A stretch of DNA of 63,824 nucleotides, counting the filler, from Octopus bimaculoides (Eukaryota), in assembly GCF_001194135.2 (NCBI RefSeq). It is 6 parts of 6 records of this genome, joined end to end, with 100 filler letters (N's around TTAATTAATTAA, not from the genome) between each part and the next. Parts side by side here need not be neighbours in the genome. Positions count along the whole stretch, not along the records: positions 1 to 16,389 come from NC_068988.1; positions 16,490 to 21,942 come from NC_068987.1; positions 22,043 to 42,638 come from NC_068991.1; positions 42,739 to 49,070 come from NC_069005.1; positions 49,171 to 56,962 come from NC_069001.1; 1 more part is not named here. One strand, written 5' to 3'. The position numbers and the translations under genes are program-made. This document shows, piece after piece, positions 10,190 through 57,006 of this stretch. Numbering within the stretch: position 1 is the stretch's first letter; every line of letters starts with the position of its first letter. The notes below the pieces were generated by a model. It had not been told where the DNA came from. It made no database searches and saw only the letters and a program-made list of their open reading frames with translations.

Positions 10190-10735
10190 TTTCAACTTTA
10201 TATTACACTAGTTTCAGTGATTGGACTGCGGCCTTGCTGGGGCACAGCCTTGAAGGGTTTAGACTAGTGGTTTTCAACCATTTTTTAATCTATGAACCCC
10301 TTTGATTACTATTCTGTTCTGGTGGGCCCCCATAGCCATTCTATGTTCAAAAACTTGTATTTATATATTGCTTTCAAATTTCCTTTTTTGGTTATCACAC
10401 ATTCACTTGCATTGTTTGAATTATCTAAAACGTGAGAGGAAAAAATACCTAGCTGTTTCTTGCACTAAACTGATTTGAAGCAAAATTTTTTCATGAATCC
10501 TTAACATACGATCATGGATCCCCGAACCCCACAAATCTTATATGCAGCCTCAGGGGTGATATTAGCCCCGATTGAGAATCACTGTATCTACCCCAGTATT
10601 TACCTTTTAGTCTTTTGCTGATAAAGCGACAAATATTGGTTTGTTGGTAAAAAGACCAACGAATAAACCAACTCCAGTTATCAGGCGGTGGTGGAAGACA
10701 ACTGCCACACAAACATAGACATACATACAAACAAA
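10190..10735 (-). mobile_element. SINE-B 3' half interrupted by a hAT MITE
   Basis: Tail (TAGTTTCAGTGATTGGACTGCGGCCTTGCTGGGGCAC) left of the MITE; body (ACCCCAGTATTT...TCTTTTGC...ACAAACATAGAC) resumes right of it. Confidence 0.7.
10265..10584. mobile_element. Non-autonomous hAT (Charlie-type) MITE
   Basis: Terminal inverted repeats TAGTGGTTTTCAACC (10265-10279) and GATTGAGAATCACTG (10570-10584) resemble CAGTGGTTCTCAACC-type hAT ends; 8-bp TSD not preserved. Confidence 0.75.
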
Positions 10736-10838
10736 AATACCCTGTTGTTGATGTTGAAATTCCAGTTTGGTTTTTGCAGACAAAAAGGTATGGAAAAGGA
10801 TTTAACAACAGAAATAGGTTACAAGAAGTACAAATAAT

Positions 10839-11042
10839 CCTTTCTACTATAGACACAAGTCCCGGAAATTTGGGCGAGGAGGCCAGTCGATTAGATCGAC
10901 TCCATTACGCAACTGGTACTTAATTTATCGAACCCGAAAGGATAAATCAACCTCGACGGAATTTGAACTCAGGACGTAAAGACAGACGAAATACTGTTAA
11001 GCATTTCGCCCGGCGTGCTGACGATTCTGCCAGTTCGCCGCC
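10839..11042 (-). mobile_element. SINE-A, full length, with 20-bp target-site duplication
   Basis: Head GGCGGCGAACTGGCAGAATCG, B-box GAGTTCAAATTCC; flanks 10819-10838 and 11043-11062 are 19/20 identical. Confidence 0.93.
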
Positions 11043-12634
11043 TTACAAGAGGTACAAATAATATTACGAACATTTAGTACCTTGTGTACATCTATCTATC
11101 TATCTATCTATCTATCTATCTATCTATCTATCTATCTATCTATCTATCTATCTATGTAAGCAAAAATAAATACAAAAAAAGGGGTTTTGTATGATTGTGT
11201 ATAGAGGAATATATTATTTTGTTTAAAAGAGTTCCAACTCTGTCTGTTTTTTTATGTTTTATGTTTATATANNNNNNNNNNNNNNNNNNNNNNNNNNNNN
11301 NNNNNNNNNNNNNNNNNNNNNNNNNNNNNNNNNNNNNNNNNNNNNNNNNNNNNNNNNNNNNNNNNNNNNNNNNNNNNNNNNNNNNNNNNNNNNNNNNNNN
11401 NNNNNNNNNNNNNNNNNNNNNNNNNNNNNNNNNNNNNNNNNNNNNNNNNNNNNNNNNNNNNNNNNNNNNNNNNNNNNNNNNNNNNNNNNNNNNNNNNNNN
11501 NNNNNNNNNNNNNNNNNNNNNNNNNNNNNNNNNNNNNNNNNNNNNNNNNNNNNNNNNNNNNNNNNNNNNNNNNNNNNNNNNNNNNNNNNNNNNNNNNNNN
11601 NNNNNNNNNNNNNNNNNNNNNNNNNNNNNNNNNNNNNNNNNNNNNNNNNNNNNNNNNNNNNNNNNNNNNNNNNNNNNNNNNNNNNNNNNNNNNNNNNNNN
11701 NNNNNNNNNNNNNNNNNNNNNNNNNNNNNNNNNNNNNNNNNNNNNNNNNNNNNNNNNNNNNNNNNNNNNNNNNNNNNNNNNNNNNNNNNNNNNNNNNNNN
11801 NNNNNNNNNNNNNNNNNNNNNNNNNNNNNNNNNNNNNNNNNNNNNNNNNNNNNNNNNNNNNNNNNNNNNNNNNNNNNNNNNNNNNNNNNNNNNNNNNNNN
11901 NNNNNNNNNNNNNNNNNNNNNNNNNATATATATATATATATACACGTATGTATATAAAACAAAAAGAAAATGCTTCGAGAAGTTTATCATGGCTAAAGGA
12001 AAGAAAGTATTTACATCTTTACCAAAACAGACTACCGGTTTCAATCACTTTAAAAGACGATTTAGTCTTACTGAAACAAAACTAAAATAAATTAAATTAA
12101 ATTAATATTTCATGATACCAGATCAGAAAATTCGCTTGGCGCTGATATTTCGTTTGCTCCTGATTGCTGTTAGGTCTTAGAAATATTAATAGCTCAAGCA
12201 GTGGCACTTGCTTATTCTGATTAAGACTATTAGTAGTAGCAGTAGCAGCAGCAGAAGCAGTAGCAAAGCTAGTAACAGTAGTAGCAGACATGGTGCTGGT
12301 TGTATTAGTCTAATTAGTAGCAGCTATGTTAGGTTCAGCGAAAGTTGTATGTATGTATATATGTATGTATGTATGTATGTATGTATGTATGTTTGTATGT
12401 ATGTATGTATGTGTGTGTGTGTATATGTATGTATGTACGACGGGGTGCTGTAGTCGTCTCGCTTGAGAGATCGGCCTGTTTTCGGAAACTTTATCCTCCT
12501 CCTCCACCTCCTTCTAATTCTCATTATTATTATTGTTATTATTATTATTATTATTATTATTATTATTATTATTATTATTATTATTATTATTATTTTTATT
12601 ATGAATGTGATCCATCTTGTATGTGACATTTCAG

Positions 12635-12671
12635 AGTCTCGCTATCTCAAAAGCCGACTGAACACTTACAC
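12635..12671 (+). CDS. Candidate 37-nt exon (ESRYLKSRLNTY)
   Basis: Acceptor GACATTTCAG|, donor AC|GTACGT; phase 1 to 2 bridges 8369 and 14685. Confidence 0.25.
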
Positions 12672-54340: not shown

Positions 54341-54422
54341 ATATGTTCATTTCTCACTTGCTTATAGGAGCTAAAGTAGAATGGTGCTAGAATGCACATA
54401 TATAGCTTATACATATTATTTG

Positions 54423-54786
54423 TTGTGGCACTCCATTGGTTATGACTATGAGGGTTCCAGTTGATCCGGTTAATGGAACAGCCTGCTCATGAAATTAATG
54501 TGCAATCGGCTGAGCACTCCACAGACATGTGTACCCTTAACATAGTTCTTGGGGAGATTCAGCATGACATAGGGCTTGTGACAAGGCTGGCCCTTTGAAA
54601 TACAGGTACAATAGAAACAGGAAGAAAAAGTGAGAGAAAGCAGGGTTTGCCACCACCCCCTGCCAGAACCACGTGGAGCTTTAGGTGTTTTTGCTCAATA
54701 AACACTCACAGTGCCTGGTCTGGGAATCAAAACCATGACCCCACAACCACGAGTCTGCTACCCTAACCACTGGGCCATTGTACTTT
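54423..54786 (-). mobile_element. Ceph-SINE-like element with RTE-type tail
   Basis: tRNA head TGGCCCAGTGGTTAGGG...GGTTTTGATTCCC; central GAGTGTTTATTGAGCAAAAACACCTAAAGCTCCAC; tail GATCAACTGGAACCCTC...GGAGTGCC; superfamily assignment from recall. Confidence 0.7.
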
Positions 54787-55961
54787 CACATATATTATTA
54801 ATGAATGAATGACAAGGAAACAGGACTTAAGTAAACCACTTCAATAGCTTACAGCTTTCTCCGAGTGCCCTGCTTTTCATAACAGCTATTTCTAAGGGCA
54901 TTGTTTTTTCATAACAGAAACAGCTGTAAGCAAATGAAATTGATCACATAATTCCTGTTGCTTTGTCATTATAAATTTAATATGTATGTATGTATGTATG
55001 TATGTATGTATGTATGCATGTGTGTGTGCAGATCTGTGTGTTTTGTTTTATGTATGTATTCTCGTGCATATAGTTGCATATCTAGACATGCTCATATATA
55101 TTTAAATTATAAACTTTTGGAAAGTTTTACAGAGTTTTACAGTTCCAGTGATGGATTGGATCTGTAGTCTTTGAATTAGCTTTCTTCTTTCTGGTGTTGA
55201 GAANNNNNNNNNNNNNNNNNNNNNNNNNNNNNNNNNNNNNNNNNNNNNNNNNNNNNNNNNNNNNNNNNNNNNNNNNNNNNNNNNNNNNNNNNNNNNNNNN
55301 NNNNNNNNNNNNNNNNNNNNNNNNNNNNNNNNNNNNNNNNNNNNNNNNNNNNNNNNNNNNNNNNNNNNNNNNNNNNNNNNNNNNNNNNNNNNNNNNNNNN
55401 NNNNNNNNNNNNNNNNNNNNNNNNNNNNNNNNNNNNNNNNNNNNNNNNNNNNNNNNNNNNNNNNNNNNNNNNNNNNNNNNNNNNNNNNNNNNNNNNNNNN
55501 NNNNNNNNNNNNNNNNNNNNNNNNNNNNNNNNNNNNNNNNNNNNNNNNNNNNNNNNNNNNNNNNNNNNNNNNNNNNNNNNNNNNNNNNNNNNNNNNNNNN
55601 NNNNNNNNNNNNNNNNNNNNNNNNNNNNNNNNNNNNNNNNNNNNNNNNNNNNNNNNNNNNNNNNNNNNNNNNNNNNNNNNNNNNNNNNNNNNNNNNNNNN
55701 NNNNNNNNNNNNNNNNNNNNNNNNNNNNNNNNNNNNNNNNNNNNNNNNNNNNNNNNNNNNNNNNNNNNNNNNNNNNNNNNNNNNNNNNNNNNNNNNNNNN
55801 NNNNNNNNNNNNNNNNNNNNNNNNNNNNNNNNNNNNNNNNNNNNNNNNNNNNNNNNNNNNNNNNNNNNNNNNNNNNNNNNNNNNNNNNNNNNNNNNNNNN
55901 NNNNNNNNNNNNNNNNNNNNNNNNNNNNNNNNNNNNNNNNNNNNNNNNNNNNNNNNNNNNN

Positions 55962-56238
55962 CAGTCTCTTTTGCCGAACTGCTAAGTTACGGGGACACCA
56001 GCATCGGTTGTCAAGCGATGTTGGAGGAACAAACACAGACCCACAAAAACATATATATACATACATACGACGGGCTTCTTTCAGTTTCCATCTACCAAAT
56101 CCACTCACAAAGCTTTGGTCGACCCGAGGCTATAGTAGAAGACACTTGCCTAAGGTGCCACGCAGTGGGACTGAACCCGGAACCATGTGGTTGGTAAGCA
56201 AGCAAGCAAGCTACTTACCACAGAGCCACTCCTGCGCC
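55962..56238 (-). mobile_element. SINE-B, young-looking, head abutting (TA)n, tail lost in gap
   Basis: Reverse complement of head and body nearly identical to 47621-47930; CpGs retained. Confidence 0.94.
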
Positions 56239-57006
56239 TATATATATATATATATATATATAAATATATACATATATAGATAGATAGATATATGTTTATA
56301 TAAATATGAACATTAAATGTATCTCATGATAGACAAATCAAAATATCTCATAAGTAGATATATGGCGATATACACCGGGAACAATGCACATTGTCAATGA
56401 AATTGTTCTATCGCTATTGATTTAATAGCTGTATCATATAAAAGATATACAAATGCAAGAAAAGAATGTGATATAAATGTAAAAGCGAAGCACTTTTAAT
56501 AGTATTCTTTAAGATGCTTCTATTCCACTCTGAGTTTCTGGAAAAATGGAACATGAATATTACCTGTTAAACAAACAAGGCACGAAATTCTGCATCAGGA
56601 AAGCCTGAGATAAAGAGGTCGTAACTGAAAACTTTGTATGTGTATTAAATATCTAGGTTAAATTATGGTATTGATATACATATCTACTGAGCTACAGAGA
56701 AGTCTTAATATAAAGTAGGATGACATGTTACAATTTCTACTATATTCTTTAATTTCATGTAATGACCAGCATAACCTGCTGCAGGTGTATCTCACGGCAA
56801 TTACCTTTCAATGAAATAACACAGACAGAATAATATTTATAATCCCCTAATACAGATAAAGAAATTATACATTGGAGTAAAAATTTACCAGTTGCTGTAT
56901 ATTTATGTAAGCCATCTCAAGAGACACAAACCAAAATCTTGAAGTAGATATGAATGTATTTANNNNNNNNNNNNNNNNNNNNNNNNNNNNNNNNNNNNNN
57001 NNNNNN

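What the first reader, a model, noticed from the sequence alone, without database searches (positions are those of the whole stretch)
10190..56260. Retroelements appear to partition, seed and re-enter specific microsatellites
Seen: three SINE-B heads start directly after (TA)n (16881, 22172, and 56238 on minus). SINE-B also carries an internal TA/TG seed right after AAGCCCGTCG that expands in several copies (15392-15420, 16848-16880, 41940-42090, 51160-51196, ~53750-53790). SINE-A sits in or next to (ATT)n (40941, 44241-44438). R4/Dong elements sit in and end with (TAA)n. Known: Dong-type RLE elements target (TAA)n. Inference: a self-reinforcing system in which each element deposits the simple repeat it or a relative later targets, which could help explain the extreme microsatellite load and gap pattern. 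I cannot tell whether this is already described for this taxon.
Basis: partly seen in the sequence, partly recalled or inferred. Interest (0 to 1): 0.75.

Follow-up and report, generated by a model that had tools for sequence, protein, structure and literature searches.

The report
Octopus jumping genes beside simple repeats
In this octopus-like genome one jumping gene (likely Dong) sits almost only in AAT repeats and two short elements carry or border TA and ATT repeats, but they account for only about one in ten to one in five such repeats, and the short elements likely choose sites by a few bases matching their own tail, a known behaviour.

Summary
Most coordinates are real, but genome-wide tests cut the claim down. 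The Dong/R4-like LINE does sit in (AAT)n: 30 of 30 3' ends, 11 of 15 visible 5' junctions; this is known. SINE-B does not target (TA)n: 808 of 10,395 young heads follow (TA)5, fewer than its 3-base TAT preference predicts (21% versus 28%), and re-entry into its own internal tract is at expectation (18 versus 11-17). Its internal TA/TG seed is real and variable. SINE-A has 10-19 bp target duplications and a true but minor (ATT)n bias (231 of 6,801), mostly in ATT-tailed subfamilies. One link holds: 5 of 30 young Dong copies sit at older SINE-A ATT tails. These SINEs explain only about 8-20% of tracts and 15 of 430 gap edges. Best reading: tail-to-target pairing plus Dong's own specificity. A side finding, at least 3,698 fixed-junction SINE-A dimers, is unresolved. 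The scan had not noted this before.

The parts
15239..15391 (+). SINE-B head, first 11 nt missing, 95% to family majority
15392..15420 (+). internal TA tract of SINE-B, running into an assembly gap
16685..16847 (+). older SINE-B head (77%), no tail of its own found
16848..16880 (+). (TA)n after the older head and before the younger copy
16881..17237 (+). younger full-length SINE-B (head 90%)
22172..22346 (+). SINE-B head (78%) after (TA)n
41832..42093 (+). 5'-truncated SINE-B head; long TA/TG tract starts 13 nt later
47590..48034 (+). full-length SINE-B with its first 30 nt duplicated; not after (TA)n
50977..51196 (+). old SINE-B head (71%) with expanded internal TA tract; not after (TA)n
53578..53974 (-). 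SINE-B head and shortened tail with a (TA)n tract between them
55964..56239 (-). SINE-B (head 92%) after (TA)n, tail cut by a gap
10207..10251 (-).
2513..2727 (+). SINE-A copy in unique sequence
10835..11044 (-). SINE-A with a 19-nt target duplication that begins ATTATT; unique target
32177..32610 (+). two SINE-A copies head to tail
40944..41117 (+). SINE-A, 3' end lost, after two ATT units
42984..43342 (+). older broken R4/Dong-like C-terminal fragment after a short (AAT)n
43903..44218 (+). 3' end of a very young R4/Dong-like LINE (16 loci, this one included, 100% identical over 323 nt)
44219..44239 (+). (AAT)7 shared by the Dong 3' end and the tail side of an older SINE-A on the other strand
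44242..44437 (-). older SINE-A (76%) flanked by (AAT)n on both sides

Best explanation
Three ordinary retroelement behaviours overlap here: a likely Dong/R4 LINE lies in (AAT)n tracts, SINE-B carries an internal TA/TG seed that varies in length, and the SINEs likely pick sites by pairing the last few bases of their RNA tail with the cut DNA, which gives a weak, tail-specific pull towards TA- or ATT-rich sites rather than true microsatellite targeting. Shown: the flank counts, the target duplications, the subfamily split and the small share of the load. Inferred: pairing at priming, Dong endonuclease specificity, slippage growth of seeds. The only real feed-forward link is modest: ATT-tailed SINE-A copies and Dong tails are part of the (AAT)n pool that Dong and ATT-tailed SINE-A later use.
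For: Dong: 30 of 30 3' ends in (AAT)n, 11 of 15 visible 5' junctions in (AAT)n; next element an older opposite-strand SINE-A tail in 5 of 30 and another R4 piece in 7 of 30; 5 of 30 matches the SINE-A share of AAT blocks, 24 of 120. SINE-B: TAT before 3,881 of 10,395 heads (5.4% background), but (TA)5 in 808 of those 3,881 = 20.8% against 27.8% (25.4-29.8) for genomic TATA; nesting 18 observed, 11-17 expected; tail ends GTA in 14 of 24. SINE-A: duplications scoring 8 or more in 20 of 47, shuffles 5% or less, starting at the tail end; (ATT)3 after the tail in 12 of 24 copies ending GGATT but 1 of 76 ending AGAAT (hand count; Fisher 3e-8); 231 of 440 TATT-led heads extend to TTATTATT against 7.8% background. 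The tail-repeat to target link is published for RTE-related SINEs (PMC6007223, passages).
Against: No partner LINE sharing a SINE tail was found among 30 reverse-transcriptase loci, so the enzymes are unassigned. No empty site was seen. The assembly breaks at (TA)n (137 of 430 gap edges; 7 of 30 TA-led heads run into gaps), so insertions in long tracts are undercounted. SINE-B shows only a weak short-duplication signal (7 of 35, p=0.012), so part of the leading AT could come with the element. One of the three ATT units counted after GGATT-type tails is the tail itself. Four-base pairing cannot explain the fixed-junction dimers (about 40 of 100 listed T3 tails). Only three families were counted; other, older elements may seed more of the load.
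Confidence: 0.72

Rival explanations
1. One reading: each family targets one microsatellite class and deposits it, and this loop drives the genome's microsatellite load and gaps.
For: 5' flank classes separate by family; SINE-B internal zones hold 40 of 476 AT and 45 of 419 AC blocks against about 3 each in shifted controls, SINE-A tails 24 of 120 AAT blocks against 2.5; 29 of 235 SINE-B heads hit a gap within 60 nt against 1.5% background; Dong uses SINE-A tails.
Against: 92% of young SINE-B heads do not follow (TA)5 and 97% of young SINE-A heads do not follow (TTA)3; 40 of 48 full-length T1/T2 SINE-A have no (ATT)3 on either side; about 88% of AT and AC blocks and 72% of AAT blocks touch none of these elements; 15 of 430 gap edges lie in SINE-B seeds.
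Confidence: 0.12
2. The SINE flanks are passive: SINEs insert at AT-rich nicks with no tail pairing, and tracts grow afterwards by slippage from tails and target duplications.
For: 3 of 48 SINE-A copies have (ATT)3 only at the 3' side; SINE-B enrichment vanishes beyond 3 bases; internal spacers span 15-117 nt in 64 copies.
Against: Strand bias (ATT, never AAT, upstream of SINE-A: 15 versus 0 of 119; 0 AAT of 48); 4 of 48 have ATT on both sides; duplications start with the bases that end each subfamily's tail.
Confidence: 0.14

Closest known systems
Dong (R4 clade) elements that target TAA repeats (PMC3812793 and PMC2887409, passages); Dong-R4 in Octopus (PMC9115989 passages; PMC13282606 first third of the text, Table 1)
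   Same: RT-linked C-terminal domain with an RPD...D...K endonuclease motif; (AAT)n at both ends; piles up in tandem; young copies.
   Different: The passages read name Dong in octopus but not its flanks or its use of SINE tails; no tree was built here.
RTE-related SINEs whose 3' microsatellite-like end correlates with the first base of the target duplication (PMC6007223, abstract and passages)
   Same: SINE-A has 10-19 bp duplications, and subfamilies that differ in the tail end differ in target.
   Different: Partner LINE not found; the upstream T-stretch was not tested.
Microsatellite seeding by retroelements: snake CR1-L3 (PMC6050309, passages), lepidopteran RTEs (PMC2887409), Alu/L1 tails and internal proto-microsatellites (PMC3812793), internal (CA)n in Haliotis MESC SINEs (PMC4758252, passages)
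   Same: SINE-B has an internal seed of variable length; SINE-A and Dong tails border AAT tracts.
   Different: Here the three families explain a minority (8-20%) of tracts.
Octopus tRNA-derived SINEs OK, OR1, OR2 (Ohshima and Okada 1994, seen only as cited in PMC4758252 and PMC4824008)
   Same: About 230-420 nt, very abundant, promoter-like heads; SINE-B looks like a CORE SINE (recalled resemblance).
   Different: No sequence comparison was possible; the match of SINE-A to OK and SINE-B to OR1/OR2 is recalled, not tested.
Dimeric SINEs such as Alu (PMC13023118, search listing only)
   Same: SINE-A T3-tail copies joined to a second SINE-A body at a fixed position, one target duplication around the pair.
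   Different: The right partner belongs to several subfamilies and is sometimes much older than the left.

Membership tests
Dong / R4 clade | non-LTR RT followed by CCHC finger and restriction-like endonuclease | tested here: met
   P0001 matches the C-terminus of 1,100-1,230 aa RVT_1 proteins; homolog P0004 has YMDD, CCHC and RPD motifs, and the window pieces align to that region; RPD motif upstream in genome copies
Dong / R4 clade | insertion in (TAA)n | tested here: met
   30 of 30 3' ends, 11 of 15 visible 5' junctions
Dong / R4 clade | groups with R4/Dong in an RT tree | not tested
   no full-length copy or named reference fetched; Pfam gave nothing for the 71-aa piece
Microsatellite-targeting element (SINE-B) | enrichment in (TA)n beyond a short motif | tested here: not met
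   20.8% against 27.8%
Microsatellite-targeting element (SINE-A) | most copies in (ATT)n | tested here: not met
   231 of 6,801 young heads; 15 of 119 in the wider sample; real enrichment, but a minority
RTE-partnered SINE (SINE-A) | target duplication of about 7-15 bp | tested here: met
   20 of 47 copies, 10-19 nt, shuffles 5% or less
RTE-partnered SINE (SINE-A) | 3' end shared with an RTE LINE | tested here: inconclusive
   no shared tail among 30 RT loci; small sample
CORE SINE / OR1-OR2 (SINE-B) | about 65-bp CORE domain homologous to MIR | not testable with these tools
   no SINE library available; resemblance recalled only
tRNA-derived SINE | tRNA-like head with A and B boxes | tested here: inconclusive
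   ARAGORN found nothing; the 150 Rfam rows shown of 234 were simple-repeat noise; box-like motifs judged by eye only
Dimeric SINE moving as one unit (T3 dimers) | both halves equally old, one fixed right partner | tested here: inconclusive
   equal for T1a partners (0.053 versus 0.055, n=29), not for T1b/T2 partners (0.038 versus 0.132, n=6); no dimer-specific changes in the right half

The most novel reading that the evidence does not exclude
A young SINE-A subfamily has become site-specific for its own family: its RNA, read through into a neighbouring copy or pairing by its own body, guides insertion to one position (about nt 17, in the promoter A-box region) of other SINE-A copies and joins seamlessly at the 5' side, producing thousands of independent dimers. 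A SINE would thus have acquired target specificity by RNA-DNA homology, with no change of enzyme.
Probability: 0.25. Interest if true: 0.68.

Novelty: new member of a known kind. Interest (0 to 1): 0.33.

Why it matters
It gives a first count of how much of this octopod's simple-repeat load three abundant retroelements explain: a minority. It also shows that SINE subfamilies differing by a few tail bases land in different sequence contexts, a natural test bed for tail-target pairing in retrotransposition. If the fixed-junction dimers prove to be independent insertions, they would be a rare case of a SINE targeting itself by homology.

Tried and rejected
The repeat finder and Rfam were swamped by simple repeats. 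SINE-B as a (TA)n targeter: rejected. B-in-B re-entry: 18 matches (16 places, two pairs repeated); only 2 show a head-[head-tail]-tail nest, many are head duplications or gapped. A fixed CAT/TAT leader in front of a short duplication: no signal at offset 3 (2 of 35). Partner LINE search in 30 RT loci: none. Dimer age test: a first result (left younger, 19 of 26, p=0.011) did not survive subfamily-specific references on 45 dimers (p=0.27); of 71 junctions, 16 were gapped and 8 more failed the alignment filter. Insertions with a duplicated head at the dimer site: 3 pattern hits, none of that kind. Contigs of other individuals and related organisms on one dimer locus (L305): swamped by other copies; one orthologous contig in each of two runs of organism B matches the flank and head positions 1-36 and then stops fitting, which suits a monomer there but does not show it. 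Literature searches listed no paper on octopus SINE flanks or these dimers; the 1994 octopus SINE paper, Repbase and all supplements were not seen and may describe them.
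Full report
Setting. The window is a pack of six stretches with many assembly gaps. The genome G000 has 2.34 Gb. For background I took 100 evenly placed 10-kb stretches, 864 kb without gaps. Pattern searches gave whole-genome counts of exact matches, which favour young copies.

Window check. The three SINE-B heads after (TA)n are real, but they are 3 of 7 heads with intact 5' ends. The window is twice as TA-rich as the genome sample. 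The internal tract follows the head end exactly at 15392 and after diverged ends at 16848 and 51160; at 41939 and 53753 it is offset. SINE-A lies in (AAT)n at 44242-44437, has only two ATT units at 40944, and sits in unique DNA elsewhere. A young LINE end at 43903-44218 is followed by (AAT)7.

SINE-B. A TA/TG tract between head and tail is part of the family majority; the spacer spans 15-117 nt in 64 gap-free copies, and 29 of 235 heads hit a gap within 60 nt against 1.5% background. So seeding is real. Targeting is not. Of 10,395 exact heads, 3,881 follow TAT (background 5.4%) and 808 follow (TA)4T (background 1.5%). That is fivefold over uniform, but among TAT-led heads 20.8% extend to (TA)5 while 27.8% of genomic TATA sites do. 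A head within 4-30 nt after an intact head end occurs 18 times; 11-17 are expected with the TAT bias, 3-4 without (based on 17 anchors in the sample). Only 2 of the 18 show a true nest. Long target duplications are rare (2 of 24); a weak short-duplication signal exists (7 of 35, p=0.012). The tail mostly ends GTA (14 of 24). TAT is not consensus, but some element-derived leader cannot be excluded. Gaps at (TA)n bias all these counts downward.

SINE-A. Copies share a head but end in different tails. Twenty of 47 have 10-19 nt duplications that begin at the tail end; shuffled pairs reach that score in 5% or less. Of 6,801 exact heads, 440 follow TATT and 231 follow TTATTATT: 52% extension against 7.8% background, so the ATT bias goes beyond the short motif. 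It is strand-specific (15 ATT, 0 AAT of 119) and subfamily-specific: (ATT)3 follows 12 of 24 tails of the GGATT type but 1 of 76 of the AGAAT type (hand count of the first 100 of 20,659 places). Of 48 full-length copies, 40 have no (ATT)3, 4 have it on both sides, 3 only 3', 1 only 5'.

Dong. The window piece is the C-terminus of an RT protein with a restriction-like endonuclease. Sixteen loci are identical over 323 nt. All 30 fetched copies end in (AAT)n; of 15 visible 5' junctions 11 are (AAT)n, 1 is 12 nt from it, 2 are (GAA)n, 1 is unique; 14 run into gaps and 1 was unresolved. Five of 30 are followed by an older SINE-A tail on the other strand, the window's copy among them, and 7 by another R4 piece. 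Five of 30 matches the SINE-A share of AAT blocks (24 of 120), so Dong appears to use whatever (AAT)n there is. TAA targeting by Dong is in print (PMC3812793, PMC2887409, passages), and Dong-R4 is reported in Octopus (PMC9115989 and PMC8967140 passages; PMC13282606, first third).

Share of the load. In the sample, SINE-B internal zones hold 40 of 476 AT and 45 of 419 AC blocks, SINE-A tails 24 and young-Dong tails 3 of 120 AAT blocks; shifted controls give about 3 or fewer. Of 430 gap edges 137 abut (TA)n, and 15 lie in SINE-B seeds. Older R4 families add some AAT tracts (11 of 18 C-terminal hits have one within 200 nt), so the AAT share is a lower bound.

Mechanism. Shown: counts, duplications, subfamily split, and the order Dong after SINE-A (by divergence). 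Inferred: the SINE RNA tail pairs with the nicked target at priming, so GTA-ended SINE-B drifts to TA sites and GGATT-ended SINE-A to ATT tracts, including earlier tails; Dong's endonuclease picks (AAT)n; slippage lengthens seeds. A link between tail repeat and target start is published for RTE-related SINEs (PMC6007223, abstract and passages), and seeding for snake LINEs (PMC6050309, passages). The loop is real for AAT, weak, and made of known parts.

Side finding, not in the window. A third SINE-A tail (T3, 16,804 matches) is followed by a second SINE-A body from position 17 in about 40 of the first 100 places, by position 50 in 6, and by one SINE-B site in 4 (hand count). The exact junction occurs 3,698 times; that site is only 55 of the sample's many AGAA(A/T) sites. 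One duplication flanks the whole pair in the loci inspected. For independent insertion: right halves of three subfamilies (30 T1a, 6 T1b/T2, 4 T3, 7 unclear of 47); old T1b/T2 partners with young left halves (0.132 versus 0.038, p=0.03); the left head variant follows the right subfamily (4 of 5 versus 6 of 29, p=0.02); no dimer-specific changes. For movement as a unit: equal ages with T1a partners (0.053 versus 0.055); the overall age difference vanished (p=0.27); no case with a duplicated head. One-locus read tests were inconclusive. My odds for most dimers: unit movement 50%, independent site-specific insertion 35%, template jump 15%.

Verdict. Observation partly confirmed; interpretation partly supported; new member of a known kind; interest 0.33. 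Nine literature searches listed nothing on octopus SINE flanks or these dimers, but the 1994 octopus SINE paper, Repbase and supplements were not seen. The names OK, OR1/OR2 and CORE for these families are recalled, not tested.

Noticed in passing
G000, e.g. L172, L177-L180, L281-L310, L402-L441: At least 3,698 fixed-junction dimers: a T3-tailed SINE-A joined to another SINE-A body at position 17; a second junction near position 50; some trimers.
   Followed up: partly
L051, L167, L181, L187: T3-tailed SINE-A inserted at the same site near the end of the SINE-B head, with different 5' junctions in each case.
   Followed up: partly
One also follows a Dong copy in L235.
   Followed up: no
window 47590-47620; L021, L047, L375, L377: SINE-B copies with their first 20-35 nt duplicated at the 5' end; L399 and L400 show tandem 28-nt repeats of the SINE-A head.
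   Followed up: no
L223, L240: Two Dong 5' junctions in (GAA)n, at places where the element itself reads AAGAA; slippage or a second target.
   Followed up: no
L229, L241: An unclassified repeat directly follows the (AAT)n tail of two Dong copies.
   Followed up: no
window 54430-54620 (minus); L026, L164, L168: A further abundant SINE-like family, resembling Deu/Nin-domain SINEs (recalled); SINE-A and SINE-B insert into it.
   Followed up: no
window 40906-40937: Start of another repeat right after (TTA)n(TTG)n, cut by the SINE-A at 40944.
   Followed up: no
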